Of a DNA stretch of 64,000 nucleotides, positions 364 through 40,966 are shown in pieces. The stretch's first letter is position 1. Every line of letters begins with the position of its first letter. The stretch comes from an uncultured Gemmatimonadaceae bacterium (lineage in GTDB: Bacteria; Gemmatimonadota; Gemmatimonadetes; Gemmatimonadales; Gemmatimonadaceae). Below the pieces are notes generated by a model. The model searched no databases. It worked only from the letters and a program-made list of their open reading frames with translations, and was not told the origin of the DNA. The stretch spans positions 30,982-94,981 of the forward strand of contig CAVSJE010000004.1 in assembly GCA_963728115.1 (NCBI GenBank), in the 5' to 3' direction. A program made the position numbers and the translations under genes.

Positions 364-2718
364 TCAGCTCACGGCCAGCCTGGCCGCGGCCACCACCGCC
401 TGTCCGTAGCTGACGGCACCGTCGTTCGGCGACAGCACCTTTGGCGCAAGTACTTCGAGCCCGATCGCTTGCAGGCGCCGGGCGAGCGAGGCCAACAGCC
501 GAACGTTCTGGAAAACGCCGCCACCCAGCGCCACCCGGGTGATACCCTCCCGTGCCGCCAAGGAGCCCACGAACTCGGCGGTGCCTTGGGCGATGCTCTC
601 ATGGAAGGCGGCCGCCAGCCGGCGGACGTCCTCCCCCCGCCGTGCCCGCAGCCCCAGGGCCACCAGCAGGGGCAGCGGATCGAAGCATGCCCTGCCGTCG
701 GCCGCCATGGTGATCTCGTACGGCAGGGGATCGGCGGCTCCGCGGCCCGCACAGGCCTCCAGCCGCATGGCCGCCTCGCCCTCGAAGTGCGACTCCCGGC
801 AGACGCCGAGCACCGCCGCCGCGGCATCGAACAACCGTCCCATGGACGAGGCGAGCGGCGCATTCACCCCGGCGTCGAGCTGCCCTTCCACCAGGTGGCG
901 GGTGCGCGGATCCACGTCGGCAAAGGCGAGCTCGAACGCGTCCCCGTGCTCGGGCGCCAACGACCGGTAGCCGAGAGCCACGCGCCAGGGCGACCGGGCG
1001 GCGACGTCTCCGCCGGGGAGCGGTGCGTAGCGCAACTGCGCCGCCCGGCGATAGGTCACGAGGTCCGCCACCAGAATCTCCGCGCCCCACGTGTTGCCGT
1101 CGTCGCCGTACCCCGTGCCGTCGAACGCCACGCCGATCACCGGGTCGGTGACGCCGTGCTCCGCGGCCACGGCGGCGATGTGGGCATGGTGATGCTGCAC
1201 CGGGATCACCCGCTCCAGCCCCAGGTCCTCGGCGAGGCGCGTGGACAGGTACTGCGGATGGAGGTCTCGCGCGGCGACCACCGGTTCGATTCGGAACAGC
1301 TCGCGGAACGAGGCGTACGTCCGCTCCCAGTGCTCGGCCGTGTCGAGCGTCTCCAGGTCGCCGATGTGCGGACTGACGTACGCATGGTGTCCCGTGGCCA
1401 GCACGAACGTGTTCTTCAGGTGCGGACCGACGGCCACCAGGGGAACCGGCGCCGCCACGGGCAACGACACGGGGAGGGGCGCGAACCCGCGTCCGCGGCG
1501 CATGAGCACGGCGGAGCCGAGCACCGCGCCGTCGGGGCGGAGCGCCGCGGGAACGACCCGCAGCACCGAGTCGTCGATCCGGGCGACGATTTCCCGGTCG
1601 TGCGTCAGGTAGGCGTCGGCCACGTCTCCAAGGTCGCGCACCGCCTCGGCGAGCGACGCCGCGAGCGGCTCGCCGCTGCGGTTGCCGCTGGTCATGACGA
1701 GCGGAGTCCCCGCGGCTTCGAGCAGCAGCAGGTGAACGGGCGTATAGGCGAGCATGAGCCCGATGGTGCCCAACCCGCCCGACACGGGCGGGGCAACGGG
1801 GGAGTGGTGGCTCGCCTGGAGCACGACGATCGGCCGGCTGGGGCGCTCCAGCCACGCGGCCTCCTCGCTCGAGATTTCCGCCAGGCGCCGCCCCTCCTCG
1901 ACGGACCGCACCATGACGGCGAGCGGCTTGCCGTCCCGGTGCTTGCCCCGGCGCAGCCGTTCCACGGCCTCCACCGCCGTGGCGTCGCAGGCCAGGTGGA
2001 AGCCGCCCACGCCGCGCACGGCGACGATGCCGCCGGCCCGGAGCCGGGCGCCGGCCCGCGCGATGGGATCTCCGGCACCAACCGGGTGGCCCCGGCGGTC
2101 GAGGTACGACAGTCGTGGCCCGCACAGCGGACAGCTGTTGGTCTCCGAGTGATAGCGCCGGTCGCCGATGTTGGCGTACTCGCGCGCGCAGGCGGGGCAC
2201 TGCGGGAACGCGCGCATGCTGGTGCGTTCGCGGTCATACGGCATGTGCTCGATGACGGTGTACCGCGGCCCGCAGTTGGTGCAGGTGATGAACGGATACC
2301 CGTAGCGGCGGTTGGTGGGATCGAAGAGTTCCGCCTCGCAATCGGGACAGGTGGCGACGTCGGGGGAGACCCACTGCCCCTCCTGGCCGGAGCCGTCGCT
2401 CTCGACGATGCGGAAGGCGCCGAGGATGGCGTCGCCCAGGGCCTCGCGTTCCACGCGGTCGATGCGGGCCAGCGGCGGCGCCTCGAGGCTGAGGGCCCGC
2501 ACGAAGCGATCGACGTCGCAGGCGTCGCCGGCGACGGCGATCTCGACGTCGCCAGTGGTGTTGCGGACCCACCCGCGAAGGCCGTGGCGCACGGCCAGCC
2601 GGTGCACGAACGGGCGGAACCCGACCCCCTGCACCACCCCGGTCACACGAAGGCGGAGTCCGTCCGTCAGCCGCCCGGCCCTCGACTCCGCCCCGCCCGC
2701 TTCGACCGCCCGGTGCAT
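364..2718 (-). CDS. hypF: [NiFe] hydrogenase maturation carbamoyltransferase HypF
   Basis: 784 aa. It has an acylphosphatase-like N-terminus (VTGVVQGVGFRPFV), two CxxC-x18-CxxC zinc-finger pairs (CPDCEAE...CTNCGPRY and CPACAREY...CPLCGPRL), then YrdC-like and Kae1-like regions. Confidence 0.95.
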   Translation of the reverse strand: MHRAVEAGGAESRAGRLTDGLRLRVTGVVQGVGFRPFVHRLAVRHGLRGWVRNTTGDVEIAVAGDACDVDRFVRALSLEAPPLARIDRVEREALGDAILGAFRIVESDGSGQEGQWVSPDVATCPDCEAELFDPTNRRYGYPFITCTNCGPRYTVIEHMPYDRERTSMRAFPQCPACAREYANIGDRRYHSETNSCPLCGPRLSYLDRRGHPVGAGDPIARAGARLRAGGIVAVRGVGGFHLACDATAVEAVERLRRGKHRDGKPLAVMVRSVEEGRRLAEISSEEAAWLERPSRPIVVLQASHHSPVAPPVSGGLGTIGLMLAYTPVHLLLLEAAGTPLVMTSGNRSGEPLAASLAEAVRDLGDVADAYLTHDREIVARIDDSVLRVVPAALRPDGAVLGSAVLMRRGRGFAPLPVSLPVAAPVPLVAVGPHLKNTFVLATGHHAYVSPHIGDLETLDTAEHWERTYASFRELFRIEPVVAARDLHPQYLSTRLAEDLGLERVIPVQHHHAHIAAVAAEHGVTDPVIGVAFDGTGYGDDGNTWGAEILVADLVTYRRAAQLRYAPLPGGDVAARSPWRVALGYRSLAPEHGDAFELAFADVDPRTRHLVEGQLDAGVNAPLASSMGRLFDAAAAVLGVCRESHFEGEAAMRLEACAGRGAADPLPYEITMAADGRACFDPLPLLVALGLRARRGEDVRRLAAAFHESIAQGTAEFVGSLAAREGITRVALGGGVFQNVRLLASLARRLQAIGLEVLAPKVLSPNDGAVSYGQAVVAAARLAVS

Positions 2719-2721
2719 GCG

Positions 2722-3420
2722 CTAGGCGCGCGCCGCGGCCGGCGCGCGCTCCGGTGCTCGCCGCGCGCGCGCGGTCCGGCGGATGAAGTCGTACCACGCA
2801 TCGAGGCCGGTCCCCGTGGTGGCCGACGTGAAGTAGAACTCCAGCGCCGGATTCACCTCGCGGGCGAACGCGACGGCGCGGTCGACGTCGAAGGGCACGT
2901 AGGGCAGCAGATCCATCTTGTTCAGCACCGCGTAGCGGGCCTCGCGGAACATCTTGGGATACTTGAGCGGCTTGTCCTCTCCCTCGGTCACCGAGAACAC
3001 GACGACTTTCGCATCCTCGCCCAGGTACCACGACGCGGGACAGACGAGGTTGCCGACGTTCTCGATGAACAGCAGGTCGGTGTCGTCGAGGTCCACGGCC
3101 TCGAGCCCGTTGTCGATCTGGCGGGCGTCGAGGTGGCAAGCGCCACCGGTGACCACCGCCTGCACGAGCCGGTTGGTGTGGCGGGCCAGGCGTTCGGCGT
3201 CGTTCTGCGTCTGCACGTCGCCGGTGATGACGGCCATCCGCAGCTCGTCGCCGAGCGCGTCCAGCGTCCGTTCGAGGAGCAGCGTCTTGCCGGCGCCGGG
3301 CGACGACACGAGGTTGAGCGCCGCGACGCCGCGGGCGTCGAGACGGGACCGGATGTCACGGGCAATGGCGTCGTTCTTCTCCATGACGCGTTCGCGGACG
3401 TCGATCGTTCTAATGGCCAT
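2722..3420 (-). CDS. hypB: Hydrogenase nickel-incorporation GTPase HypB
   Basis: 232 aa with P-loop SSPGAGKT, an ENVGNLVCP motif and an NKMDL motif. There is no His-rich N-terminus. Confidence 0.93.
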   Translation of the reverse strand: MAIRTIDVRERVMEKNDAIARDIRSRLDARGVAALNLVSSPGAGKTLLLERTLDALGDELRMAVITGDVQTQNDAERLARHTNRLVQAVVTGGACHLDARQIDNGLEAVDLDDTDLLFIENVGNLVCPASWYLGEDAKVVVFSVTEGEDKPLKYPKMFREARYAVLNKMDLLPYVPFDVDRAVAFAREVNPALEFYFTSATTGTGLDAWYDFIRRTARARRAPERAPAAARA

Positions 3421-3658
3421 CGTCCAACTCCAGGTAGCTGACCCGCAGCACGTCGCCGGGCTTGCGGTCGAGGAACGGTTTGGCGCCGCCGAAGTGCGGC
3501 TGCGAGAGCAGCGCCTCGAGGCAGAATTCCAGATTTTCGATTTCGAGTCCCGCGTCGTCGCCGACCTCGACTCCCACCGTCACCAGGGTGCCGGCGTCGC
3601 GGTCGTACTTCTCGTCCACGATACGGCAGATTTCCATGGCGACGCTCATCTCGTGCAT
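3410..3658 (-). CDS. hypA: Short HypA-like nickel metallochaperone lacking the zinc-binding domain
   Basis: 82 aa starting MHEMSVAMEICRIV (the HypA MHE N-terminus). It has no CxxC...CxxC motifs. Its last 11 nt overlap the hypB start, and its start overlaps the hupD end by 13 nt. Confidence 0.75.
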   Translation of the reverse strand: MHEMSVAMEICRIVDEKYDRDAGTLVTVGVEVGDDAGLEIENLEFCLEALLSQPHFGGAKPFLDRKPGDVLRVSYLELDDGH

Positions 3659-4230
3659 GATGGCGTCCCCGGCGCCGCCGGCCATCCGGTGGTCGGGAGC
3701 GCCCAATCGCCGGCCGGAACCCGACGCCCGCCCGTGCGCGGCCGGCAGACGTGGCCCCACGACCGGAGCTGATCCACCGCCAACTCCACCAGCCGGTCGA
3801 TCTTCTCGGCGACGCGGGGGGAGAGGCCGTCGCCCATCTCGAATCCCGCCGGCTGGAGGCCGATGGCGACGGTCACCGCCGGCAGGGTGCCGCGAAGCTG
3901 CGCGACGGCCAGCACGTCGCGCAGGTCGAGCTGGTGCGGGGAGAGCTTCATCGCCAACGCCCGCGGAATCTCGTCGCCCTCGAGCACCGCCTCGGTCCCC
4001 GGCGGCATGCCGGTGCGGATCGCGTCCAGAAAGAGCACGCGGTCCGCCGTCTCGATCATCGGCAGCAGCATCATCCCCCAGGTGCCGCCGTCCACCAACT
4101 CCACGCTCTCGGGCACCCGCCACCGGTCACGCAGCCGTTCCAGCGCTACGAGACCGGTGCCGTCGTCCCCGAGCAGGGGATTCCCGAGCCCGATGACCAG
4201 GTCGCCGTGGCGGGGTTCAGCCGTCGGCAT
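3646..4230 (-). CDS. hupD: Hydrogenase maturation endopeptidase (HyaD/HupD family)
   Basis: The sequence DLVIGLGNPLLGDDGTGLVA...VELVDGGTWGM...LFLDA is typical of the family. I chose the internal ATG at 4230 as the start; it overlaps the hupC end by 14 nt. Confidence 0.85.
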   Translation of the reverse strand: MPTAEPRHGDLVIGLGNPLLGDDGTGLVALERLRDRWRVPESVELVDGGTWGMMLLPMIETADRVLFLDAIRTGMPPGTEAVLEGDEIPRALAMKLSPHQLDLRDVLAVAQLRGTLPAVTVAIGLQPAGFEMGDGLSPRVAEKIDRLVELAVDQLRSWGHVCRPRTGGRRVPAGDWALPTTGWPAAPGTPSCTR

Positions 4231-4993
4231 AGTGCTCGTCGGTGGGCACGAACCGTCCCCCGCTGACGATGGACGACATCGTGCCGCTGCGTTCCAGCAG
4301 GTCGGCACGGATGGCGAGGTACACGTGCAGAATGATGAAGAACGGGAAGTACCAGGTGGCCACGTGGTGGATCACGCGCACGCCCTGGAATCCGCCCAGG
4401 TACGGCGCGAGGTGGCCCACCGTGTGCATGAACACGCCGTGCGGGTTGGCCTCACCGAACATGATGAACCCGGTGACCACCATGATGCCGGCCACCACGT
4501 AGGTGAAGGTGTAGGCCAACTGCTGCAGGGGATTGTGGCCGAGGTAGCGCGGCGAACGCTCGGGATGGATCATCAGGTAGAACTTGACCATCTTGACGAG
4601 GTTCACCCAATCCCGTTTGTGCACCGGGAACAGCGCCGGGAGCCGCTCGAAGCGATTGCCGGCGAAGAGCCAGTACACGCGGACGATCGCCGTGGCCACC
4701 AGCACGCCGGCGGCGATGAAGTGGACGAGGCGCACCCATTGCAGCCCGAAATTCGGGCTGGGTCCGACGGACAGGAAGTATGGCCGCCCGATCCAGAGCC
4801 CGGTGACGACGAGCGTGACGATGCTGATCGCCGCCGCCCAATGCATCGCGCGAATGGGCCAGTGCCACAGGTACACCCAGCGATGCTCGGGGTACCCGCC
4901 GCCGAGCGGTTGCTCATAGGTCGTCGTCAGCGCCCGCTGATCGATGGACGGCCAATGCGGTTCCCGCTGCTGCTTGGCGTCGCGGGGGTTCAT
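4217..4993 (-). CDS. hupC: Ni/Fe-hydrogenase b-type cytochrome subunit (HyaC/HupC family)
   Basis: 258 aa from the ATG at 4993, which overlaps the hupL stop as ATGA. It has four TM helices with conserved His residues (RAMHWAAA, HNPLQQ, RVIHHVATW, ILHVYLA). Confidence 0.85.
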   Translation of the reverse strand: MNPRDAKQQREPHWPSIDQRALTTTYEQPLGGGYPEHRWVYLWHWPIRAMHWAAAISIVTLVVTGLWIGRPYFLSVGPSPNFGLQWVRLVHFIAAGVLVATAIVRVYWLFAGNRFERLPALFPVHKRDWVNLVKMVKFYLMIHPERSPRYLGHNPLQQLAYTFTYVVAGIMVVTGFIMFGEANPHGVFMHTVGHLAPYLGGFQGVRVIHHVATWYFPFFIILHVYLAIRADLLERSGTMSSIVSGGRFVPTDEHYADG

Positions 4994-6705
4994 TGCACGC
5001 GCACCTCCGTCACCGTGTCCCCTTCGGCATCGAGCACGTGGACGCCGCAGGCGATACACGGATCGAACGAGTGGACCGTGCGCAGGATCTCGAGCGGCTG
5101 CTCGGGGTCCGCGAGCGGGTGGTTGTCGGTCAGCGCGGCTTCATACGGGCCGAGCTGGCCGCCGGCGTCGCGCGGCGACGCGTTCCACGTGGTGGGGACC
5201 ACGCACTGGTAGCGCGAGATCTTGCCGTCCTCGATCTCCACCCAGTGGCCGAGCGCGCCGCGCGGCGCATCGAGCACGCCGTAGCCGCGGCTGGTCTTGG
5301 GCCAGCTCGAGGGCTCCCACTTGGACTTGGCGAAGGTCGAGACGTCGCCGGCCTTGATGCGGGCCACGAGATTGTCGAACCAGACGCTCATCCGGCGGGC
5401 CAGCAGCACGGTTTCCATGCCGCGGGCGGCGGTCCGGCCGAGCGTCGAGAAGAGCGCGGCGGGCGGGGCATTCAGCGCCTTGAGTGTGTCGCCGACGATC
5501 TCCTTCACTTCCTTGTGACCGCTGGCGTAGGCCACGAGCATGCGCGCCAGCGGACCCACTTCCATGGATTTGCCGTCGTACCGTGGCGCCTTCATCCACG
5601 TGTACTTCTGCTCATCCTGGAGGTACGTCCAGGGAGCCGCCGGGCCGGTGTAGTGGGGCTTCGTCTCCCCTTCCCACGGGTGCAGCGCCGCCTCGGGCCC
5701 CTTGTCGTAGTCGTACCACGAACTGTGGATCGACTCGGTGACGCTCGTATGGTCGTACGGCAGCACCTTGCTCAGATCCTTGTTCATCACGATCCCGCGC
5801 GGCAGGTACAGCGAGTTGACGTCGCGGATGTCGGTCTCCGGGAACTCGCCCACGGAGAGGTAGTTGCCGGTGCCGCCGCCGATACCCGCCCACTCCTTGT
5901 AGTAGCCGGCGATGGCGACGAGATCGGGCCAGTACACCTGCTCGACGAACCGCTGGGCCCGGGTGATCATGTCCTTGATCTCGGTGAGCTTGGCGGCGTT
6001 GATCGTCGCCGTACCCTCGAGATTGATCGCGCTGGCCATGCCGCCCACGAGGAAGTTCGGGTGCGGGTTCTTGCCGCCGAAGATCGTGTGCAGGCGGATG
6101 ACGTCACGCTGCCAGTCGAGCGCCTCCAGATAGTGCGCCACGGCGAGGAGGTTGACCTCGGGCGGCAGCTTGTAGGCCGGGTGGCCCCAGTAGCCGTTGC
6201 TGAAGATCCCGAGCTGTCCGCTGCCCACGAACGTCTTCACGCGCTCCTGCACCTCGCGGAAGTGCGTGGGGGAGTTGTTGGGCCACGGCGAGATCGACGC
6301 CGCGATCTTCGCCGTCTGCGCTGGATCGGCCTTGAGGGCGCTCACCACGTCCACCCAGTCGAGCGCGTGCAGATGATAGAAGTGGATCACGTGATCCTGC
6401 ACGAACTGCATGCCGTGCACGAGATTCCGGATCGTATTGGCGTTCGGTGGAATGTGGATGTCGAGCGCGTCCTCCACGGCGCGGCACGACGCCACGGCGT
6501 GCACCACGGTGCAGACGCCGCAGATGCGCTGGGCGAACGCCCAAGCGTCACGCGGGTCGCGGCCCTGGAGCACGATCTCGATGCCCCGGAACTGCGTGGC
6601 CGACGCCCAGGCGTTGGCCACCTTGCCGTTCTCGGCCTGGGCCTCGATGCGCAGGTGCCCCTCGATGCGCGTGATCGGATCGATCACGACCTTAGTTTTC
6701 GCCAT
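4990..6705 (-). CDS. hupL: [NiFe] hydrogenase large subunit, group 1 (periplasmic uptake type)
   Basis: 571 aa. It carries the N-terminal RIEGHLRIE and RICGVCT motifs and the C-terminal DPCIACGVH motif, followed by a cleavable extension. It closely resembles HybC/HydB-like proteins. Confidence 0.97.
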   Translation of the reverse strand: MAKTKVVIDPITRIEGHLRIEAQAENGKVANAWASATQFRGIEIVLQGRDPRDAWAFAQRICGVCTVVHAVASCRAVEDALDIHIPPNANTIRNLVHGMQFVQDHVIHFYHLHALDWVDVVSALKADPAQTAKIAASISPWPNNSPTHFREVQERVKTFVGSGQLGIFSNGYWGHPAYKLPPEVNLLAVAHYLEALDWQRDVIRLHTIFGGKNPHPNFLVGGMASAINLEGTATINAAKLTEIKDMITRAQRFVEQVYWPDLVAIAGYYKEWAGIGGGTGNYLSVGEFPETDIRDVNSLYLPRGIVMNKDLSKVLPYDHTSVTESIHSSWYDYDKGPEAALHPWEGETKPHYTGPAAPWTYLQDEQKYTWMKAPRYDGKSMEVGPLARMLVAYASGHKEVKEIVGDTLKALNAPPAALFSTLGRTAARGMETVLLARRMSVWFDNLVARIKAGDVSTFAKSKWEPSSWPKTSRGYGVLDAPRGALGHWVEIEDGKISRYQCVVPTTWNASPRDAGGQLGPYEAALTDNHPLADPEQPLEILRTVHSFDPCIACGVHVLDAEGDTVTEVRVQ

Positions 6706-7849
6706 GGCTGTCCTCCCGGCCGGTTGCGCTCGGCGAGTGATCGGCGCGCGCTTCGGCGCGCCGCGAACGGATCTGATACAACCCCGTCGCCGCCGCGTGA
6801 GCGGCGACGCCGGCAGCGGCTCCGACGGCCAGCGCGGCCCCGAGGATGTCCGCCGTGTGCTCCACGCCCACGCCGGCCACGTTGGGCAGGCGGTTGTAGA
6901 ACGGCGTCATCGTATCCCAGAAATTGCGCTCGGTGCAGCCGATGCACGGGTGCCCGGCGCCGATCGGGAAGTCGGTGTGCGAATTCCACATGAAGATCGG
7001 ACAGGGCGAGAACGTGGCCGGCCCCTTGCAGCCCACTTCGTACAAGCACCAGCCCTCGCGGGCGCCATTGTCGTCGAAGGTGCGCACGAACTGGCCGGCG
7101 TCGTAGTGGGCCCGCCGCGGGCACTGATCGTGAATCCGGTTGCCGTAGGCGAACAGTGGCCGTCCGTCGGAATCGGTCTCGGGCAAGCGCCCGAAGGTGA
7201 GGAAGTGCACCACGGTCGCCGTGATCACGTCGGCAATCGGGGGGCAGCCGGCGATGTTGAGCACCGGCTTGTCCTTGATGATTTCCGAGACGCCCACCGC
7301 GCCGGTGGGATTCGGCTTCGCGGCCTGCACGCTGCCCCAGTGGGCACAGGCGCCCACGGCGATCACGGCCGCCGCGTCCTTGGCGGTCTCCTCGAGGAGC
7401 GTGCGCGCCGTCTTCCCGGCGATGGTGGTGTAGATCCCGTTCTCGTTGGTCGGCACCGAGCCGGTGACGATCAGCACGTACTTGCCGGCGTTCTCCTTGC
7501 GGGCATTCTCCAGCGCCTGCTCGGCGTGGTGCCCGGCCGCCGCCATGAGGGTATCCATGAAGTCGAGCGAGATCGTGTCGAGCACGAGGTCGCCGATGGT
7601 CGGATCCGCGGTGCGGATGACACTCTCCACGCACCCCGTGCATTCCTGCAATTGCAGCCAGATGACGCTGGGCCGCTTCAGGGCTTGCATGGCCTCGGCG
7701 ATTCGCGGCACCGCCAGGCTGCTGAGTCCGAGGACAGCGGCCATCTGTCCACAGAATTCGATGAAGTCGCGCCGGCTGATGCCGCGGCGGCCGAGAAATC
7801 CGCCAAGCGCCTCATCGTCTGACCACGCGTGCGTGGTTGGCGTGAGCAT
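6692..7849 (-). CDS. hupS: [NiFe] hydrogenase small subunit with Tat signal and C-terminal membrane anchor
   Basis: It has the twin-arginine motif SRRDFIEF, the proximal-cluster motif LQECTGCVES, and a C-terminal hydrophobic helix. I prefer the ATG at 7849 over the upstream GTG at 7882. Confidence 0.93.
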   Translation of the reverse strand: MLTPTTHAWSDDEALGGFLGRRGISRRDFIEFCGQMAAVLGLSSLAVPRIAEAMQALKRPSVIWLQLQECTGCVESVIRTADPTIGDLVLDTISLDFMDTLMAAAGHHAEQALENARKENAGKYVLIVTGSVPTNENGIYTTIAGKTARTLLEETAKDAAAVIAVGACAHWGSVQAAKPNPTGAVGVSEIIKDKPVLNIAGCPPIADVITATVVHFLTFGRLPETDSDGRPLFAYGNRIHDQCPRRAHYDAGQFVRTFDDNGAREGWCLYEVGCKGPATFSPCPIFMWNSHTDFPIGAGHPCIGCTERNFWDTMTPFYNRLPNVAGVGVEHTADILGAALAVGAAAGVAAHAAATGLYQIRSRRAEARADHSPSATGREDSHGEN

Positions 7850-11914: not shown

Positions 11915-13360
11915 TCACTTGTGGAACATCGTGGGCAGGATGTTGTTGAGGTTCACGCCAACCTGCGGCGCGATGCCATAGTCCTTCTGCATCTGGTTGA
12001 TGCTCGCCGTCAGCAGCGCCTCGATGAGGAACGGGTTGTGAACCACCGACCCCGGCTCCTCGGCGAGTTGCAGATTGAACTGCGCGCCCTTGGCGGTGGT
12101 GAGCGTGGTGCTCACCGCCAGCTCCGCCGGATCCACCTGCGCCAGCTGGTGCGCCAGCGTCGAGTCGAGGAGCGCCAGGCGCCCCCGCGTGGCCGTCAGT
12201 GCCGACTGGGCGACGGCGTCGCTGCCGTGGCAGCCGCTCGCCGTGCAGGCGCTGAAGGAGCGTGCCGAGATATCGCACGTGTTGTCCGTGGTCGGCAGCC
12301 CGCTGGCATCGAGACACGGGATGGCGACGAACAGGTGGCCGGTCGCCTGGAAGGCGAAGTTGCCGGTGTTCGGATCGGTGACCGTGAAGCGGTTGACGTG
12401 ACAGGTCACGCAGAGGCCAGGATTACGGCTCGACCCGTGGGTAGCAACGATGGTGTCGGGCAGATTGAGCTGGGTGCCCGGGGGCCACCAACCAGCGGTT
12501 CCGATGAGGAGTGGGCCTTCCGGCGAGTGCGGCCCGTGGGTGTTGGTCGGGTCGGCCACCGCGTTCCGCTGGTGGCACTTCATGCACAGGTTCTGCGTCG
12601 GGTCCGTGCTGTTGATCGGGAACCGAAGCTGGGCCGGATTGTCGCTGCCGTGCGGATCGTGGCACACCGCGCAGACGATCGGCAGCGGGTTGGTGGCGAC
12701 CTGGTCCTTCTCGAGATAGGCCGTGTTGACGTTGAAGGCCGCCAGCGCACCTTGCGCCGTGTGGCAGGGCTGGCAACTCGCGTTCCCCATCGCGTGCGAG
12801 TTCATCTGCCCGTGCATCGACTGCTTCCACTCGTCGACGAACGGTTCGTGCGTGCCGCTGTGGCATTCGCCGCAGCCATCGCCGAACGCCGCACCGGTAT
12901 CGACGGCGATCGAGGCCAACGGACGATTGCCGAGCCCTGGCGAGGTGATGTGGGCCAGCCCCGGGCCGTGGCAGCTCTCGCACTGCACGTCTTCGTAGCG
13001 CGCGTCGTGCGTGGAGGTGTAGCCGACCTGATCCTGCGTGACCGCGTTGCCGTTCTTGCTGATCGTGTGGCAGGGTTCGCAGGAGGCGCCGGCGTGCCCG
13101 CTGGCCTGCAGGTCGGCCCATGCCGAGGCGTGCTTCGTGCCGGCCCACTGCCCCTGCTTCTCGACGTGACAGTTGCCGCAGACGGTCTGCTTGGTGACCG
13201 TGTCGGAGTACCCGACGAAGTCACCCGCCGCCGTCGGGGGCGTCGTGAAACTCGGCTCGCTCCGGTAGACGATCTTTTCGCTGGTACACGAAGAGGCGAC
13301 CACCGCTGCGATCAGCACCGCGGTAAGCCGCCCCAAAACCGGATTTCTCGAGACTCTCAT
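11915..13360 (-). CDS. Multihaem c-type cytochrome lipoprotein, paralogue A (8 CxxCH plus 1 CxxxxCH)
   Basis: The start at 13360 was chosen by homology to paralogue B (MRVSRNPVLGRL). It has the lipobox VASSC, eight CxxCH motifs (CGNCH, CEPCH, CESCH, CGECH, CQPCH, CAVCH, CMKCH, CVTCH) and one CTASGCH. Confidence 0.9.
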   Translation of the reverse strand: MRVSRNPVLGRLTAVLIAAVVASSCTSEKIVYRSEPSFTTPPTAAGDFVGYSDTVTKQTVCGNCHVEKQGQWAGTKHASAWADLQASGHAGASCEPCHTISKNGNAVTQDQVGYTSTHDARYEDVQCESCHGPGLAHITSPGLGNRPLASIAVDTGAAFGDGCGECHSGTHEPFVDEWKQSMHGQMNSHAMGNASCQPCHTAQGALAAFNVNTAYLEKDQVATNPLPIVCAVCHDPHGSDNPAQLRFPINSTDPTQNLCMKCHQRNAVADPTNTHGPHSPEGPLLIGTAGWWPPGTQLNLPDTIVATHGSSRNPGLCVTCHVNRFTVTDPNTGNFAFQATGHLFVAIPCLDASGLPTTDNTCDISARSFSACTASGCHGSDAVAQSALTATRGRLALLDSTLAHQLAQVDPAELAVSTTLTTAKGAQFNLQLAEEPGSVVHNPFLIEALLTASINQMQKDYGIAPQVGVNLNNILPTMFHK

Positions 13361-13493: not shown

Positions 13494-13522
13494 CCGTCGG
13501 AGGATGCCGGAGTTTTGTGGGG
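13494..13522 (-). promoter_or_regulatory. Conserved 29-nt upstream box, copy 1, about 135-160 nt upstream of cytochrome A
   Basis: On the plus strand it reads CCGTCGGaggatgCCGGAGTTTTGTGGGG. It matches 25 of 29 positions of the box at 15284-15312. Confidence 0.35.
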
Positions 13523-13673: not shown

Positions 13674-13694
13674 CCGCCCACCCATCCCCACTCG

Positions 13695-15143
13695 TTAGCG
13701 GTAGTTGGCCGCTCCCTGCGGCAGAATGTTGGCGAGATTCACGCTGATCGTCGGCGCGATCCCGTAGTCCGTCTGGATCTGCTGGATGCTCTTGGTGAGC
13801 AGCGTTTCCATCAGGAACGGATTGTGGACTTCACTGCCCGGCTTCTCGGCCAGTTGCAGATTGAACTTTGCCCCGATGGCCGAATTCATGGTCGTGCTCT
13901 GGAATTCGGTGGCCGGGATCTGAACGAGCTGGCTGTTCAGCGCCGAGTCGAGCAGCGCGAGCCGGCCGGTGACCGCGGTCCAGGCCGACCGAGCGGCGGC
14001 GGGGCTGCCGTGGCAACCACTGGTGGCGCAGGCCGAGAAGGAACGCTGCGAGATGTCGCACTCGCCCGTGGTCGGGACGCCGTTGGCGTCCAGGCACGGG
14101 GCGGCGGCGAACGTGTGCCCCTGGTAGCTGACCACGAACCCACCGGTCGAGTCGGTGATCGTCTGCGTACCCATGTGGCAGGTCACGCAGAGTTTCGCGT
14201 TGGCCGATGAGCCGTGCGTGCCGATGATGGTATCCGGCCCGGTGTAGTTGGCCGGGAAGTAGCCCGCGTAGCCGAGGAGGACCGGACCTTCCGGCGCCAT
14301 CGGGGCGTGGCTGCTCGCCGGGGCGACCGGCTTGCCATTCCGCTGGTGGCAGCGCATGCAGAGGTTGGCAGCGGTGTCGGGGACGTCGACCGGGTAGCGC
14401 AGCTGGGCGACGTTCGGACCGCCGTGCGGGTCGTGGCAAACCGCGCAGGTGATCCCCATCGGGTTGGTGGCTTCCTCGGTGGCTTCCTTGTAGTTGGTGT
14501 TCACGCCCCAGGCGGTCAGGGCGTCCTGGCCGACGTGGCAGTTCGTGCACGCGGCGTTGCCGAGCGCGTGCGCTTCCAGATGCGCGTGGCCGGCATCCTT
14601 GGTCTGGACCCACTCGTCGACGAAGGGATCGTGCGTGCCGGTGTGGCACTCCCCGCACCCGTCGCCGAACGCGGCGCCGGTGTCGACCGCGATCGAGGCC
14701 AACGGGCGGTTGGACAGCCCGGGCGCCGTGACGTGCGTCAGGCCGGCGCCGTGGCAGCTCTCGCACTGGACGTCCTCGTACCGAGTGTCGTTCGTGGAGA
14801 GGTAGCCGGACGCCGAATCGGGCGAGGCGTTGCCGTTGGAGTTCACGGTATGGCAGGGGGCGCACGAGGCGCCGGCGTGGCCGCTGGCCTGGAGATCCGC
14901 CCAGGCATTCGCATGCTTGGTGGTGGACCACTTGGCCTGCTGGTCCACGTGACAATTGCCGCACACGGTCTGCTTGGTGACCGTGTCCGCGTACCCGACG
15001 AAGTTCGCGGCCGCCGCTGGCGGCGTCGTGAAGCTCGGTTCGCTCCGGTAGGCGATTCGTTCGCTGGTACACGAGGAGACGACGACCGCGCCGACCAACA
15101 GCGCGATCAGCCGTCCCAGCACCGGACTCGTAGAGGATTTCAT
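13695..15143 (-). CDS. Multihaem c-type cytochrome lipoprotein, paralogue B (8 CxxCH plus 1 CxxxxCH)
   Basis: The ATG at 15143 gives MKSSTSPVLGRLIALLVGAVVVSSC (lipobox). It is colinear with paralogue A and, by eye, about two-thirds identical. Confidence 0.9.
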   Translation of the reverse strand: MKSSTSPVLGRLIALLVGAVVVSSCTSERIAYRSEPSFTTPPAAAANFVGYADTVTKQTVCGNCHVDQQAKWSTTKHANAWADLQASGHAGASCAPCHTVNSNGNASPDSASGYLSTNDTRYEDVQCESCHGAGLTHVTAPGLSNRPLASIAVDTGAAFGDGCGECHTGTHDPFVDEWVQTKDAGHAHLEAHALGNAACTNCHVGQDALTAWGVNTNYKEATEEATNPMGITCAVCHDPHGGPNVAQLRYPVDVPDTAANLCMRCHQRNGKPVAPASSHAPMAPEGPVLLGYAGYFPANYTGPDTIIGTHGSSANAKLCVTCHMGTQTITDSTGGFVVSYQGHTFAAAPCLDANGVPTTGECDISQRSFSACATSGCHGSPAAARSAWTAVTGRLALLDSALNSQLVQIPATEFQSTTMNSAIGAKFNLQLAEKPGSEVHNPFLMETLLTKSIQQIQTDYGIAPTISVNLANILPQGAANYR

Positions 15144-15283
15144 GTTTATCGTTCTCCGCACTCCGTGGGGGCGTGGGGGGACTGCTCGGTGAAACTCGAG
15201 TGATGGTTCGTACTTGTCCTGCAGCATTTCGTATCGTCACCTGTTGCTGCGGAGTTGAACCTGCCGTTCGCACTTCCGCGCGA

Positions 15284-15312
15284 CCGTCGGCAAATACCGG
15301 AGTTTTGTGGGG
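15284..15312 (-). promoter_or_regulatory. Conserved 29-nt upstream box, copy 2, about 140-170 nt upstream of cytochrome B
   Basis: On the plus strand it reads CCGTCGGcaaataCCGGAGTTTTGTGGGG. It sits at the same relative position as copy 1. Confidence 0.35.
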
Positions 15313-15483
15313 AGCGCACCGACGACCGTGTCATGCGACTTCCCCTATGGTCGTCGGATGCCGACGGCGCGTACGGCTTTCCCTGACACGAACCACCCCG
15401 CTGCCTGACTGACGGACGACGGTGCGATTCCCAGCTTGGGCCCATCGCGCGGGGTCTCGCCCCGCCCGCACCAGGGAGGAACG

Positions 15484-15792
15484 ATGTGCCTCGGGGTTCC
15501 CGGCCGCGTACTGGAAGTGGATGGACAGATCGCGCAGGTCGACTTCTTCGGCATTCGCCGCGAGACACGACTCGACATCATCGATGAGCCCGTGGCGCCC
15601 GGCGACTACATCCTGAATCACGTCGGGTTCGCCATCCGGCGGATTCCCAGCCACGAGATCGCCGAAACGCTCGCGCTGTACGAACTGCTGCTGCGCGAGG
15701 CGGAGAACGACATGATGGCGGCCGACGTGCGCGGCGAGATCGACGCCACCCGCCCATCGGCCGGCAAGCCGGCAGGAGCGAACGGTGCCTGA
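15484..15792 (+). CDS. hypC: Hydrogenase assembly chaperone HypC
   Basis: It starts MCLGVPGRVLEV (the essential N-terminal Cys2). GGGAGGA lies just upstream of the ATG at 15484. Confidence 0.9.
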   Translation: MCLGVPGRVLEVDGQIAQVDFFGIRRETRLDIIDEPVAPGDYILNHVGFAIRRIPSHEIAETLALYELLLREAENDMMAADVRGEIDATRPSAGKPAGANGA

Positions 15793-16933
15793 CGCCCCGG
15801 TGGCGGCGCCCGTGCTGCCGAAGGGCGCGGGCGAGCTGAAGTTCCGCGACCCGGCGCGGGCCCGCGACCTGGCGGGCGCCATCGGCCACATGTGCGACCA
15901 GATCGGGCGCGCGCCGGTGACGGTCATGCACGTGTGCGGCAGCCACGAGCAGGCGATCGCGAAGTTCGGGTTGCGGCAGACCTTTCCAGCCGCGCTCGAC
16001 GTGATCATGGGCCCGGGGTGTCCGGTGTGCGTCACCGACCTCCCGGAAGTGGACGAGGCGGTGGTGCTGGCCGAGGACGGCGTGCGGGTGGTGACCTACG
16101 GCGACATGCTGCGCGTGCCGGGGACGGTGCGCTCCCTGGCCGAGACGCAGTCGATGGGCGCGAACGTGGACGTCGTGTACAGCGCCGCGCAGGCGGTCGA
16201 GATCGCGCGCGACACCGACGAGCCGGTGGTGTTCTTCGCCAGCGGCTTCGAGACCACGGCCGTGGCCACGGCGGCGATTCTGGTGGCCGACCCGCCGCCG
16301 AACTTCTTCGTGCTCTCTGCGCACAAGTACATCCCGCCGGTGATGGAGATCGTAGCCGAGATGCCGGAGACGCGCATCGAAGGGTTCCTCGCCGCGGGCC
16401 ACGCGGCCACGATCACCGGTTGGGGGATCTTCGAGCGATTCGTGGAGCGCCACGGGATTCCCGTGGTCGTCGCCGGGTTCGAGCCGCTGGACATCCTGGC
16501 CGGCCTGGCGCAGCTCGTGGAGCTGATCCGCGACGGGCGCCACGAGGTGGTGAACACCTTCCCGCGCTGCGTCACCAAGGAGGGCAACCGTGTGGCGCAG
16601 GAACAGCTCTGGCGGGTGTTCCGCACCACGGGCGGCAACTGGCGCGGCATCGCGCACGTGCCGAACGGCAACCTGCGGCTGCGCGACGAGTTCGCGCGCT
16701 TCGACGCCCGGCGCCAGTTCATCATCGACCTCAAGCGGCTCTGGACGCAGGCGCCGGCGGCGCTCACGCAGCTCTGCATCTGCGGCGACATCATGGCCGG
16801 CATCTCCTCGCCCGAGAAGTGCTCGCTGTTCGGCAAGGAATGCGTGCCCGATGCGCCGGTGGGCGCCTGCATGGTGAGCAGCGAGGGCACGTGCCGCATC
16901 TGGCACCAGTACGGGGGACATCCGAAACTATGA
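15785..16933 (+). CDS. hypD: Hydrogenase maturation Fe-S protein HypD
   Basis: 382 aa with the motifs MHVCGSHE, GPGCPVCVT, FFASGFETT and the C-terminal CxxxxxxxC region. A GTG start overlaps the hypC end by 8 nt. Confidence 0.94.
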   Translation: MPDAPVAAPVLPKGAGELKFRDPARARDLAGAIGHMCDQIGRAPVTVMHVCGSHEQAIAKFGLRQTFPAALDVIMGPGCPVCVTDLPEVDEAVVLAEDGVRVVTYGDMLRVPGTVRSLAETQSMGANVDVVYSAAQAVEIARDTDEPVVFFASGFETTAVATAAILVADPPPNFFVLSAHKYIPPVMEIVAEMPETRIEGFLAAGHAATITGWGIFERFVERHGIPVVVAGFEPLDILAGLAQLVELIRDGRHEVVNTFPRCVTKEGNRVAQEQLWRVFRTTGGNWRGIAHVPNGNLRLRDEFARFDARRQFIIDLKRLWTQAPAALTQLCICGDIMAGISSPEKCSLFGKECVPDAPVGACMVSSEGTCRIWHQYGGHPKL

Positions 16934-18003
16934 CCAGCGTCGTCAACGAGGCCGCCGTCCGCGCGCATTCCGGACGCCGCGACCCCACGATCGTCATGAA
17001 GCACGGCGCCGGCGGGCGGGCCATGCGGCGCCTCATTCAGGAGACGCTGACGCGCGGCTTCGTCGACGTCGAGGTGGACGGCTTCGGCATCGCCGCCATG
17101 GACGACGGTGCGGCGCTGCGCGTGGGCGATCGCTGGCTCATCGTCACCACCGACTCCCACGTCGTGCAGCCGGTGTTCTTTCCCGGCGGTGACATCGGCC
17201 GCCTGGCCATCGCCGGCACGGTGAACGATCTGGCGATGATGGGCGCCACCGAACCGATGGGCCTCACCTGCGCGCTGATCGTCGAGGAGGGATTCACCTT
17301 CCCGAACCTGGAGCGCGTGCAGCAATCGATGTTCGAGACCTGCCGTCAGGCCGGCACCACGGTGGTCACGGGCGACACGAAGGTCATGGGGCGCGGCGAG
17401 CTGGACGGCGTGGTCATCAATACCACGGGCGTCGCGATGACCGACACCCTCGTCCGCGACTCGGGGCTTCAGGTGGGCGACCACCTCATCGTCACCGGCA
17501 CCGTCGGCGACCACGGCATGGCGCTCATGGTACACCGGCACCGGCTGCAGATCGACGCCGAGCTCAGGTCCGACGTCGCGCCGCTCAACCACATGATCCG
17601 CGACGCGCTCCGCGCGCGGCCGGGCGCCGTGGTGGCGATGAAGGATCCCACCCGCGGGGGCCTCTCCAGCGCCCTGCACGAGATGGCCGAGAAGGCGGGC
17701 GTCGGCATCCTCGTCCGCGAGGCGGACGTGCCGGTGAACCCGGTGGTGGCCGCGGCCGCCGAGATGCTGGGCCTCGATCCGCTGCACGTGGCCAACGAGG
17801 GCAAGGCGGTGATCGGCGTGCGCGGCGACGAGGCGACGGTCGAGGCCGTGCTTGCGGCGCTGCGCCGGCATCCCGAAGGCGCGAACGCCGCGGTGATCGG
17901 CACCTGCGTGCCGACGCGGCCCGGCGACGTGGTGCTCGATACGGGACTCGGCAAGCGACTGCTCTCGGAGTACGAGGGTGAACTGCTCCCCCGCATCTGC
18001 TGA
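16930..18003 (+). CDS. hypE: Hydrogenase maturation carbamoyl dehydratase HypE
   Basis: The ATG at 16930 overlaps the hypD stop as ATGA. It has an AIR-synthase-like fold and ends with the diagnostic ...ELLPRIC. Confidence 0.95.
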   Translation: MTSVVNEAAVRAHSGRRDPTIVMKHGAGGRAMRRLIQETLTRGFVDVEVDGFGIAAMDDGAALRVGDRWLIVTTDSHVVQPVFFPGGDIGRLAIAGTVNDLAMMGATEPMGLTCALIVEEGFTFPNLERVQQSMFETCRQAGTTVVTGDTKVMGRGELDGVVINTTGVAMTDTLVRDSGLQVGDHLIVTGTVGDHGMALMVHRHRLQIDAELRSDVAPLNHMIRDALRARPGAVVAMKDPTRGGLSSALHEMAEKAGVGILVREADVPVNPVVAAAAEMLGLDPLHVANEGKAVIGVRGDEATVEAVLAALRRHPEGANAAVIGTCVPTRPGDVVLDTGLGKRLLSEYEGELLPRIC

Positions 18004-40962: not shown

Positions 40963-40966
40963 GGTC

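What the first reader, a model, noticed from the sequence alone, without database searches (positions are those of the whole stretch)
364..18003. The hydrogenase maturation locus is split by a 6.5-kb multihaem cytochrome / beta-barrel module
hypF-hypB-hypA-hupD-hupC-hupL-hupS (364-7849, minus) and hypC-hypD-hypE (15484-18003, plus) are normally contiguous. Here they bracket four minus-strand genes (8680-15143) and a small lipoprotein gene. The upstream region of cytochrome B is also the hypCDE divergent promoter region (15144-15483). That arrangement suggests co-regulation of H2 oxidation with this cytochrome module, for example H2-driven electron export to an external acceptor.
Basis: inference. 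Interest (0 to 1): 0.6.

Follow-up and report, generated by a model that had tools for sequence, protein, structure and literature searches.

The report
Hydrogenase locus wrapped around cytochrome conduit
In this uncultured soil bacterium (Gemmatimonadaceae) the genes for its only hydrogen-oxidising enzyme surround a set of haem-protein and outer-membrane-barrel genes. The two sets stay together across the phylum, which suggests that hydrogen can fuel electron export to acceptors outside the cell, although nobody has tested this.

Summary
hypF-hypB-hypA-hupD-hupC-hupL-hupS (364-7849, minus) and hypC-hypD-hypE (15484-18003, plus) bracket four minus-strand genes and a divergent TPR lipoprotein gene. 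The four genes encode a 16-haem periplasmic cytochrome, a roughly 24-strand beta-barrel of no named family, and two paralogous 9-haem lipoprotein cytochromes.

The split of the hyp genes is specific to this genus, where at least 10 species share it. The deeper pattern is phylum-wide:
- In 301 Gemmatimonadota genomes, 75 of 78 with this hydrogenase also carry the barrel, against 56 of 223 without it.
- Where both lie on one contig, 33 of 38 are within 25 kb, in at least five gene orders.
- A cbb3-oxidase control is linked far more loosely.

The surface cytochromes are homologues of OmhA and OcwA, the cell-surface Fe(III) reductases of Gram-positive iron reducers. Candidate inner-membrane quinol-oxidising cytochromes lie at 40.8-48.7 kb in this window and directly beside the conduit in relatives.

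Best reading (confidence 0.55): H2 is oxidised by HupSL, electrons pass through HupC to quinol, then through inner-membrane cytochromes, CytA and the barrel to CytB/CytC and an external acceptor. Co-regulation is untested, and I found no promoter motif shared by hupS and the cytochrome genes. I class it as a new variant of a known kind (porin-cytochrome conduit) with a hydrogenase linkage I could not find described.

The parts
364..2718 (-). hypF, carbamoyltransferase for hydrogenase maturation
   Evidence: Pfam HypF_C_2, Sua5, zf-HYPF and acylphosphatase domains
2722..3420 (-). hypB, nickel GTPase
   Evidence: Pfam cobW/HypB/UreG
3410..3658 (-). hypA, short 82-aa form without the zinc-finger half
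   Evidence: Matches positions 1-61 of 112-116 of the HypA profiles only. Same length in all loci of the genus.
3646..4200 (-). hupD, maturation endopeptidase (start codon uncertain; the ORF runs to 4308)
   Evidence: Pfam HycI, 7.8e-27
4217..5059 (-). hupC, dihaem b-type cytochrome membrane anchor and quinone reductase (start codon uncertain)
   Evidence: TIGR02125, 165 bits against a 121.5 cut-off; Pfam Ni_hydr_CYTB
4990..6705 (-). hupL, [NiFe] large subunit, group 1
   Evidence: PF00374, 785 bits. RxCGxC and DPCxxCxxH motifs plus a 15-aa C-terminal extension. Best solved relative is 3MYR_B. It is the only [NiFe] large subunit in the genome.
6692..7849 (-). hupS, small subunit with TAT signal and C-terminal membrane helix; standard 4-Cys proximal cluster
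   Evidence: TIGR00391, 452 bits, with a TAT signal. CTGC and WGS in place of the supernumerary Cys positions; 10 Cys in the mature part.
8134..8583 (+). small TPR-like lipoprotein, a conserved member of the conduit module (divergent from hupS in this genus)
   Evidence: Lipobox LLAAGAC. Weak TPR hits. Homologue next to cytA in many loci across the phylum.
8680..10224 (-). cytA, periplasmic 16-haem cytochrome c
   Evidence: 16 CXXCH and a signal peptide. Always follows the barrel gene in relatives.
10221..11777 (-). outer-membrane beta-barrel of about 24 strands, from an unnamed family; translationally coupled to cytA (ATGA overlap)
   Evidence: No Pfam or NCBIfam hit. AlphaFold2 pLDDT 77.8, pTM 0.70, all-beta. 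Best folds are the 24-strand usher pores FimD and PapC, TM 0.44-0.50. ATGA overlap shown.
11915..13360 (-). cytB, lipoprotein cytochrome with 8 CXXCH and 1 CX4CH; OmhA/OcwA-like surface reductase candidate
   Evidence: Lipobox VASSC. Profile hits 6QVM (8.3e-18) and 6I5B (7.5e-14). The only significant folds are 6I5B and 6QVM.
13494..13522 (-). conserved upstream box of cytB (AAAWCTCCGG-N7-CCGACGG)
   Evidence: Conserved in the genus alignment
13695..15143 (-). cytC, tandem paralogue of cytB (64% identity). It occupies the place where most relatives have an inner-membrane 18-20-haem cytochrome.
   Evidence: The inner-membrane cytochrome in relatives is shown.
15144..15483 (.). divergent intergenic region between cytC and hypC. 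It holds the second copy of the cytochrome upstream box (15284-15312) and hypC-side conserved elements.
15484..15792 (+). hypC
   Evidence: Pfam HupF_HypC
15785..16933 (+). hypD
   Evidence: Pfam HypD, 411 bits
16930..18003 (+). hypE
   Evidence: Pfam AIRS and AIRS_C
18013..18855 (+). crotonase-fold gene that follows hypE in every locus of the genus (role unknown)
   Evidence: Pfam ECH_1; synteny
40814..42997 (+). NapC/NirT-type membrane cytochrome with 21 CXXCH and 1 CX4CH; candidate quinol dehydrogenase of the conduit (true start is later than 40814)
   Evidence: Pfam Cytochrom_NNT. Lies between cytA and the hup operon in the congener G014, and beside the module in G049.
44848..48702 (-). 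operon of an 11-haem cytochrome, a HydC-like cytochrome b and a 14-haem cytochrome; CbcL-like candidate quinol oxidase of the conduit
   Evidence: Pfam. Homologues sit directly next to cytA or the barrel in G002, G014, G049, L078, L100, L107, L110 and L111.

Best explanation
The stretch is one arrangement of a hydrogenase-plus-conduit supercluster that is conserved in Gemmatimonadota.

Proposed electron path:
1. A TAT-exported, membrane-anchored, O2-sensitive-type group 1 [NiFe] uptake hydrogenase (HupSL) oxidises H2 on the periplasmic face. It reduces the quinone pool through its b-type cytochrome HupC.
2. Quinol is re-oxidised by inner-membrane multihaem and b-type cytochromes. In this genome these lie at 40.8-48.7 kb. 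In most relatives an 18-20-haem NapC-like protein is encoded inside the module.
3. Electrons pass to the 16-haem periplasmic CytA.
4. They cross the outer membrane through or inside the roughly 24-strand barrel.
5. They reach the two OmhA/OcwA-like lipoprotein cytochromes CytB and CytC on the cell surface, which reduce an extracellular or insoluble acceptor such as Fe(III) or Mn(IV) oxides or humic substances.

The hyp split is a genus-specific rearrangement. In it a duplicate surface cytochrome replaced the in-module inner-membrane cytochrome, and hypCDE came to lie divergently next to it.

Shown here: gene identities, protein architecture, homologies, conserved linkage and co-occurrence. Inferred: topology, the direction of electron flow, the acceptor, and the regulatory coupling.
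For: Gene identities.

Conserved order: at least 10 congeners share it. hup/hyp genes lie within 10 kb of the module in at least 20 of 77 loci, in at least 5 gene orders.

Phylum sample of 301 genomes:
- hupL in 78, barrel in 131, both in 75. Fisher p = 1e-30; approximate genus-level p = 1e-13.
- 33 of 38 same-contig pairs are within 25 kb, and 20 within 9 kb.
- Control: ccoN shows OR 5.8 against 75 for hupL, is never closer than 17 kb, and only 5 of 17 pairs are within 25 kb.
- Congener G015 lacks both gene sets.

Proteins:
- Barrel model is all-beta and of usher-pore size.
- CytB/CytC profile hits OmhA 6QVM (8.3e-18) and OcwA 6I5B (7.5e-14), and these are the only significant fold matches. 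Both are cell-surface terminal reductases of Fe(III)-reducing Gram-positives (PMC6703420, PMC7829351, PMC9250108).
- Lipoboxes on CytB/CytC, a signal peptide on CytA, and ATGA coupling of the barrel and cytA genes.

Inner-membrane partners: candidate quinol-oxidising cytochromes sit next to the conduit in G002, G014, G049 and others.

Hydrogenase type: HupS lacks the supernumerary cysteines of O2-tolerant enzymes. By established knowledge of group 1d enzymes, this fits use under anoxia.
Against: - There are no expression, biochemical or physiological data. No cultured host appears among the 77 loci.
- The conserved cytochrome upstream box is not found upstream of hupS, so a shared regulator is not evident.
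- 56 genomes have the module without the hydrogenase, so the conduit is not dedicated to H2.
- Electrons would pass through the common quinone pool, which also feeds the cbb3 oxidase encoded nearby.
- Multihaem conduits can run in either direction.
- The OmhA/OcwA/NrfA/HAO superfamily includes soluble-substrate reductases.
- Fold matches are modest (TM 0.38-0.39; model pLDDT 72).
- Genome-level co-occurrence statistics are inflated by shared ancestry.
- The in-module inner-membrane cytochrome is missing in this genus.
Confidence: 0.55

Rival explanations
1. Respiratory-island reading. The hydrogenase and the conduit are independent branches of a low-oxygen respiratory network that are inherited together. 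H2 electrons mainly go to O2 (through cbb3), N-oxides or other acceptors, and the conduit serves organic-carbon respiration. Proximity would reflect co-inheritance or co-induction by anoxia rather than a pathway.
For: Both feed or drain the quinone pool, since HupC is a quinone reductase. cbb3 oxidase, FixG and a bc-type cytochrome b lie 17-30 kb away in the same window. ccoN also co-occurs with the barrel (OR 5.8) and sits 45-75 kb away in several genera. The module occurs without the hydrogenase in 56 genomes. The promoter motifs differ.
Against: The hydrogenase linkage is much tighter and more specific than that of ccoN: 33 of 38 pairs within 25 kb against 5 of 17, and OR 75 against 5.8. 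It also survives repeated rearrangement. Almost no hydrogenase-positive genome lacks the barrel (3 of 78).
Confidence: 0.2
2. Inward conduit. The module takes electrons up from Fe(II), reduced humics, minerals or partner cells, as MtoAB and PioAB do. The locus would then be a lithotrophy island that offers two alternative electron donors, H2 and extracellular reductants.
For: Porin-cytochrome conduits are reversible in principle (established for MtrCAB against MtoAB/PioAB; cited in PMC13264449). High-affinity cbb3 oxidase and bc-type genes in the window could accept such electrons.
Against: The closest characterised homologues of the surface cytochromes are reductases of Fe(III) reducers. The near-obligate presence of the module in hydrogenase-positive genomes is not predicted by two independent donor systems. 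No carbon-fixation context was seen in the window (partial survey).
Confidence: 0.1
3. Surface or periplasmic enzyme for soluble substrates. CytB/CytC would be catalytic multihaem reductases (nitrite, hydroxylamine, sulfite or tetrathionate, peroxide), and H2 would be the donor for that reaction.
For: CytB/CytC belong to the NrfA/ONR/HAO/OTR/OcwA homologous group (one search lists HAO and octahaem nitrite reductases at 1e-5 to 5e-4; PMC9250108). OcwA itself reduces nitrite and hydroxylamine in vitro (PMC6703420, from my reading of that work; not re-checked in the text here).
Against: A soluble substrate would not need a large outer-membrane barrel, a 16-haem relay and lipoprotein anchoring. 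The best hits are the two metal-reducing surface cytochromes, not NrfA or HAO.
Confidence: 0.07
4. Direct periplasmic wiring. In this genus, which lost the in-module inner-membrane cytochrome, HupSL would hand electrons straight to the 16-haem CytA. This bypasses quinone and is analogous to the hydrogenase, cytochrome c3 and Hmc chain of Desulfovibrio.
For: The inner-membrane cytochrome is absent from the module in this genus, except in the divergent G007. CytA has a weak similarity to 16-haem HmcA (3.4e-5, far below the cut-off). The hup genes are tightly adjacent.
Against: HupC is intact and scores above the equivalog cut-off. HupS keeps its membrane-anchor helix. Alternative quinol-oxidising cytochromes exist in the window and are module-adjacent in congeners.
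Confidence: 0.05

Closest known systems
Geobacter porin-cytochrome (Pcc) complexes OmaB/OmbB/OmcB (PMC4245776)
   Same: It has the same three-part logic in one gene cluster: a periplasmic multihaem cytochrome, a porin-like outer-membrane barrel and an outer-membrane lipoprotein multihaem cytochrome. It has no homology to Mtr. The presumed role is electron transfer across the outer membrane.
   Different: There is no detectable sequence-family membership. The barrel has no Pfam or NCBIfam hit, and the GSU2203-type decahaem model scores 38.9 against a 325 cut-off. Haem counts are 16 and 9 rather than 8 and 12. The surface cytochrome is of the OmhA/OcwA type. A TPR lipoprotein is added. The cluster is physically linked to a [NiFe] hydrogenase, which I did not find reported for Pcc clusters in the papers I could search.
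Shewanella MtrCAB with CymA (structure 6R2Q)
   Same: The overall architecture matches: an inner-membrane NapC/NirT-type quinol dehydrogenase, a periplasmic or inserted multihaem cytochrome, a large barrel and a surface lipoprotein cytochrome. There is weak sequence similarity to MtrA (6R2Q_A, 4.7e-6 with the CytB profile).
   Different: The barrel does not match the MtrB/PioB family (no Pfam hit at E <= 0.01). It is about 24 strands and 490 aa, against 26 strands and about 700 aa. The DmsE/MtrA model scores 43.6 against a 192 cut-off. The surface cytochrome fold is unlike MtrC.
OcwA (Thermincola potens, 6I5B) and OmhA (Carboxydothermus ferrireducens, 6QVM)
   Same: CytB/CytC are sequence homologues (7.5e-14 and 8.3e-18), and these two are the only significant fold matches. 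All carry 9-11 haems, have a C-terminal helical domain, and are located at the cell surface (by lipobox here).
   Different: Those proteins sit on the wall or S-layer of Gram-positive bacteria without any outer-membrane barrel. Here the homologue is a lipoprotein partnered with a barrel in a diderm. Identity is about 21-22%. I did not check the conserved distal-His catalytic features.
Group 1 membrane-bound [NiFe] uptake hydrogenases with a cytochrome b anchor (E. coli Hyd-1/Hyd-2, Wolinella HydABC, Allochromatium vinosum MBH 3MYR)
   Same: It has a TAT small subunit, a large subunit with both CxxC pairs and a cleavable C-terminus, a HupC b-type cytochrome, a HupD protease and the hypABFCDE maturation set.
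   Different: The proximal cluster is the standard 4-Cys type (not O2-tolerant group 1d). HypA lacks its zinc-finger half. The locus is interleaved with an outer-membrane cytochrome module. I did not assign a subgroup (1c, 1e or 1f).

Membership tests
Group 1 membrane-bound [NiFe] uptake hydrogenase | Large subunit with N-terminal RxCGxC and C-terminal DPCxxCxxH nickel-iron ligands | tested here: met
   RICGVC at residue 62 and DPCIACGVH at residue 550; PF00374, 785 bits
Group 1 membrane-bound [NiFe] uptake hydrogenase | Small subunit exported by a TAT signal, with three Fe-S clusters | tested here: met
   SRRDFIEF, TIGR01409 and TIGR00391 at 452 bits; 10 Cys in the mature part
Group 1 membrane-bound [NiFe] uptake hydrogenase | Dihaem b-type cytochrome third subunit (quinone reductase) | tested here: met
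   TIGR02125 equivalog, 165 bits against a 121.5 cut-off
O2-tolerant group 1d hydrogenase | Two supernumerary cysteines at the proximal [4Fe-3S] cluster (CTCC and WGC) | tested here: not met
   HupS has CTGC and WGS. The criterion comes from established structures of Hyd-1 and Ralstonia MBH.
Porin-cytochrome conduit (functional class, Pcc/Mtr-like) | Adjacent genes for an outer-membrane beta-barrel, a periplasmic multihaem cytochrome and a lipoprotein multihaem cytochrome | tested here: met
   Barrel model. 16 CXXCH with a signal peptide, and 8+1 haem motifs with a lipobox. Gene order is conserved in 77 loci.
Porin-cytochrome conduit (functional class, Pcc/Mtr-like) | Demonstrated electron transfer across the outer membrane | not testable with these tools
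   Needs proteoliposome or genetic assays
Geobacter Pcc family (OmbB/OmaB/OmcB homologues) | Sequence homology of the components to OmbB, OmaB and OmcB | tested here: not met
   Barrel has no family hit. Only sub-threshold generic haem-motif hits, for example the GSU2203 family at 38.9 against 325. I made no direct alignment to OmbB.
MtrCAB / MtoAB / PioAB family | MtrB/PioB-family barrel and DmsE/MtrA-family decahaem | tested here: not met
   No Pfam hit for the barrel at E <= 0.01. TIGR03508 scores 43.6 against a 192.2 cut-off. MtrB is not among the top 50 fold hits.
OcwA/OmhA group of surface multihaem cytochromes | Sequence and fold homology to OcwA (6I5B) and OmhA (6QVM) | tested here: met
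   Profile E-values 7.5e-14 and 8.3e-18. Foldseek E-values 1.9e-5 and 2.3e-4, TM 0.38-0.39, and no other significant match.
OcwA/OmhA group of surface multihaem cytochromes | Penta-coordinated haems with conserved distal histidines (H281/H282 and H380/H381 of OcwA; PMC9250108) | not tested
   I did not map residue-level correspondence

The most novel reading that the evidence does not exclude
Gemmatimonadota may possess a dedicated, co-inherited 'H2:extracellular acceptor oxidoreductase' chain. This would make an abundant and supposedly aerobic soil phylum a hidden hydrogenotrophic reducer of metals and humic substances. In the window's genus, which lost the in-module inner-membrane cytochrome, the hydrogenase may even feed the 16-haem cytochrome directly and bypass the quinone pool.
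Probability: 0.12. Interest if true: 0.85.

Novelty: new variant of a known kind. Interest (0 to 1): 0.62.

Why it matters
Gemmatimonadota are among the most abundant soil phyla, yet they are known mainly as aerobic heterotrophs and phototrophs. A conserved physical coupling of their only respiratory hydrogenase with an outer-membrane multihaem conduit predicts a specific, testable physiology. That physiology is H2-fuelled reduction of iron or manganese oxides, humic substances or electrodes under anoxia.

If true, this would:
- add a large and overlooked guild to soil iron and hydrogen cycling;
- provide a third, independently built type of outer-membrane electron conduit, made of a new barrel family and OmhA/OcwA-type surface cytochromes normally seen in Gram-positives;
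- give a rare case in which a donor enzyme and a terminal extracellular reductase are kept together in the genome.

In the paper library I could search I found only generic mentions of multihaem proteins in Gemmatimonadota MAGs. I found no description of this linkage.

Tried and rejected
1. ORF 10435-11877 as the barrel gene. I rejected it because the translation is Arg/Gly/Pro-rich junk. The frame 10221-11819 gives the barrel.
2. A regulatory motif shared by the cytochrome and hupS promoters. The box AAAWCTCCGG-N7-CCGACGG is conserved upstream of cytB and cytC across the genus but absent upstream of hupS. Only a short TTTCCCCCACA resemblance exists in this genome.
3. The sigma-70 promoter and terminator scan was uninformative: 0 promoters, and terminators below the shuffle mean.
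5. An orthologue of the in-module inner-membrane 18-20-haem cytochrome in the window's own genome. I found only partial C-terminal matches to two other cytochromes of the window.
6. Membership of the Mtr or Geobacter Pcc families was not met.
7. A pure respiratory-island explanation, tested with ccoN as control, accounts for loose clustering only.
8. I did not assign a hydrogenase subgroup (1c, 1e or 1f) because no reference set was at hand. The closest solved structure is A. vinosum 3MYR.
9. Two calls to the genome search with the full 897-aa CcoNO failed for technical reasons. I repeated the search with the CcoN core.

Full report
OBSERVATION

The window has about 70% G+C. It is contig C4:30982-94981 of a 4.4-Mb, 99%-complete genome. 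Its closest public relatives are all uncultured Gemmatimonadaceae MAGs.

- On the minus strand: hypF (364-2718), hypB (2722-3420), a short hypA (3410-3658), hupD, hupC, hupL (4990-6705) and hupS (6692-7849).
- On the plus strand: hypC (15484-15792), hypD (15785-16933) and hypE (16930-18003), followed by a crotonase-fold gene (18013-18855).

Between these two arms lie five genes:
- A divergent TPR-like lipoprotein gene (8134-8583, plus strand).
- cytA (8680-10224, minus strand), with 16 CXXCH motifs and a signal peptide.
- A beta-barrel gene (10221-11777, minus strand).
- Two lipobox cytochromes, cytB (11915-13360) and cytC (13695-15143), each with 8 CXXCH and 1 CX4CH. They are 64% identical to each other.

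The barrel stop codon overlaps the cytA start as ATGA. The long ORF 10435-11877 is a wrong frame. The genome has a single [NiFe] large subunit, so the hyp genes on both sides serve this one enzyme.

THE HYDROGENASE

HupL carries both CxxC ligand pairs and a 15-residue C-terminal extension for the HupD protease. HupS has a TAT signal, a C-terminal membrane helix and exactly ten cysteines in its mature part. It has CTGC and WGS where O2-tolerant enzymes have extra cysteines.

HupC scores above the equivalog cut-off for the hydrogenase b-type cytochrome. The nearest solved structure is the Allochromatium vinosum membrane-bound enzyme 3MYR.

This is therefore a standard, probably O2-sensitive, quinone-reducing periplasmic uptake hydrogenase of group 1. 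I did not assign a subgroup.

THE MODULE

Barrel:
- It matches no Pfam or NCBIfam family.
- An AlphaFold2 model built on 26 homologues is all-beta, with pLDDT 77.8, pTM 0.70 and about 24 long strands.
- It resembles the 24-strand usher pores FimD and PapC best, at TM 0.44-0.50. It is a large barrel, not a small diffusion porin.

Surface cytochromes:
- A profile of 38 CytB/CytC homologues hits OmhA of Carboxydothermus ferrireducens (6QVM, 8.3e-18) and OcwA of Thermincola potens (6I5B, 7.5e-14). MtrA, HAO, octahaem nitrite reductases and cytochrome c554 follow far behind.
- The CytB model (pLDDT 72) has only three significant fold matches: the two OcwA chains and OmhA.
- The identities of these PDB entries and their role as cell-surface terminal reductases of Gram-positive Fe(III) reducers are given in PMC9250108, PMC6703420 and PMC7829351.

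The module thus has the logic of a porin-cytochrome conduit, with a periplasmic relay, a barrel and surface lipoprotein reductases. It is built from a new barrel family and OmhA/OcwA-type cytochromes. It is not a member of the Mtr or Geobacter Pcc sequence families.

IS THE ARRANGEMENT CONSERVED?

Within the genus:
- The full order hypF...hupS / lipoprotein / cytA-barrel-cytB-cytC / hypCDE-crotonase recurs in G001, G003, G004, G006, G009, G010, G011, G012 and G016. It recurs in part in G002 and G008.
- In G014 an extra 10-kb block lies between cytA and the hup operon.
- G005 has the module and the hydrogenase on different short contigs.
- G015, which is 98% complete, lacks both.

Outside the genus the two gene sets remain neighbours but in other orders:
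- L047: hypDC-hypFBA-hupDCLS, divergent from lipoprotein-barrel-cytA.
- L057, L058 and L101: hupSLCD-hypABF followed on the same strand by cytB, an inner-membrane cytochrome, barrel, cytA and lipoprotein.
- L073: a fully contiguous hupL...hypABF-hypCDE followed by the module.
- L069, L086 and L087: hupDCLS divergent from cytB, inner-membrane cytochrome, barrel and cytA.

The split of the hyp genes is therefore a genus-level rearrangement inside an older neighbourhood.

HOW STRONG IS THE LINK?

I searched an even sample of 301 Gemmatimonadota genomes:
- hupL occurs in 78 genomes and the barrel in 131.
- 75 of the 78 hupL genomes carry the barrel, against 56 of 223 without hupL. The odds ratio is 75 and Fisher p = 1e-30. 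An approximate genus-level table gives p = 1e-13.
- Of the 38 genomes with both genes on one contig, 33 have them within 25 kb and 20 within 9 kb.

As a control I ran the cbb3 oxidase core CcoN, which lies 18 kb from the barrel in this window:
- Its odds ratio with the barrel is 5.8.
- It is never closer than 17 kb.
- Only 5 of 17 same-contig pairs are within 25 kb, and four of those are from the window's own genus.

A loose respiratory neighbourhood exists, but the hydrogenase linkage is far tighter. On a barrel tree the linked state is concentrated in one clade (17 of 19 scorable rows). It also appears in three other places, which needs at least five changes of state.

The asymmetry fits a general export conduit to which the hydrogenase is an optional, dependent donor branch: the hydrogenase almost never occurs without the module, but the module often occurs without the hydrogenase.

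THE MISSING INNER-MEMBRANE STEP

In most relatives a protein with an N-terminal membrane helix, 18 CXXCH and 2 CX3-4CH motifs is encoded between cytB and the barrel (L087:8019-10100). It is present even in the most divergent congener, G007 (L046). The rest of the window's genus lacks it and carries the cytB duplicate (cytC) there instead. The genome has no full orthologue of it.

The window does encode other candidates:
- A NapC/NirT-type cytochrome with 21 CXXCH motifs, at 40814-42997.
- An operon of an 11-haem cytochrome, a HydC-like cytochrome b and a 14-haem cytochrome, at 44848-48702.

Their homologues sit directly beside the conduit in other genomes:
- In congener G014 the whole block lies between cytA and the hup operon.
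- In G002 the 11-haem and cytochrome b genes follow cytA.
- In G049, L078, L100, L107, L110 and L111 they precede cytB or the barrel.

These are therefore the likely quinol-oxidising entry points of the conduit in this genome.

REGULATION

The upstream regions of cytB and cytC share a box, AAAWCTCCGG-N7-CCGACGG, followed by CACATTC. They also share a conserved leader just before the start codon. All of these are conserved across the genus.

One copy of the box lies in the cytC-hypC divergent region (15284-15312). The hupS upstream region has its own, different conserved blocks.

MECHANISM

My proposed mechanism, at confidence 0.55, runs as follows:
1. H2 is oxidised by HupSL.
2. Electrons pass through HupC to menaquinol.
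3. Quinol is oxidised by the inner-membrane b/c cytochromes.
4. Electrons pass to CytA.
5. They cross the outer membrane at the barrel.
6. CytB/CytC reduce an external acceptor.

What is shown: the gene identities, the architecture, the homologies and the linkage. What is inferred: the topology, the direction of flow, the acceptor and the regulatory coupling.

The rivals, with their confidences:
- An independent-branches respiratory island (0.2).
- An inward, Fe(II)-oxidising conduit (0.1).
- A surface reductase for soluble N- or S-oxyanions (0.07).
- Direct HupSL-to-CytA wiring in this genus (0.05).

NOVELTY

Full-text searches returned only generic mentions of multihaem proteins in Gemmatimonadota MAGs. 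I found no report of a porin-cytochrome cluster linked to a hydrogenase. The library does not cover subscription journals.

Earlier AI notes of this scan describe the same conduit in other Gemmatimonadota genomes, two of them next to a hydrogenase. I treated these as leads and tested the linkage myself.

I class the finding as a new variant of a known kind.

Noticed in passing
window 3410-3658 (-): HypA is only 82 aa and matches only the N-terminal half of the HypA profiles, so it has no zinc-finger CxxC pairs. The hit has the same short length in all loci of the genus, which makes it a conserved form and not a local truncation.
   Followed up: partly
window 18013-18855 (+): A crotonase/enoyl-CoA-hydratase-fold gene starts 9 nt after hypE and follows hypE in every locus of the genus (85-94% identity). 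It might be a maturation accessory like the crotonase domain of HypX, but I did not test this.
   Followed up: no
window 40814-48702: A second cytochrome block lies here: a NapC/NirT-type cytochrome with 21 CXXCH motifs, a B12-binding radical SAM protein, a 14-haem cytochrome, a HydC-like cytochrome b and an 11-haem cytochrome. In congener G014 this whole block lies between cytA and the hup operon. In other genomes parts of it directly flank the barrel. It is probably the inner-membrane end of the same conduit.
   Followed up: yes
window 13361-13694 and 15144-15483: Both cytochrome paralogues are preceded by a conserved box (AAAWCTCCGG-N7-CCGACGG, then CACATTC) about 160 nt upstream. Both also have a conserved leader (CCCACG..CCCCCCACGGAGTGCGGAGA) just before the start codon. 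The long conserved 5' region hints at dedicated regulation.
   Followed up: partly
L087:8019-10100 and homologues in L046, L048, L052, L057-L059, L069, L084-L112: Most Gemmatimonadota modules encode an inner-membrane-anchored cytochrome with 18 CXXCH and 2 CX3-4CH motifs between the surface cytochrome and the barrel. The window's genus replaced it with a duplicate of the surface cytochrome.
   Followed up: yes
window 28984-39703: A fused CcoN-CcoO cbb3-type oxidase (897-aa open frame), FixG, a copper P-type ATPase and a bc-type cytochrome b lie downstream of the hyp genes. This gives the region the look of a low-oxygen respiratory neighbourhood.
   Followed up: partly
G001:C8, G003:C156, G005:C352, G002:C185 (L034, L061, L065-L067): Several congeners carry a second, distant copy of the conduit (barrel about 38% identical) with no hydrogenase genes within 10 kb. 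The window's own genome has only one barrel gene.
   Followed up: partly
L024 / L040 (G001:C4): In one congener the hupL frame is broken into two pieces, the cytC region is fragmented, and an extra cytC-like gene sits after cytA. This could be local decay or an assembly problem in that MAG.
   Followed up: no
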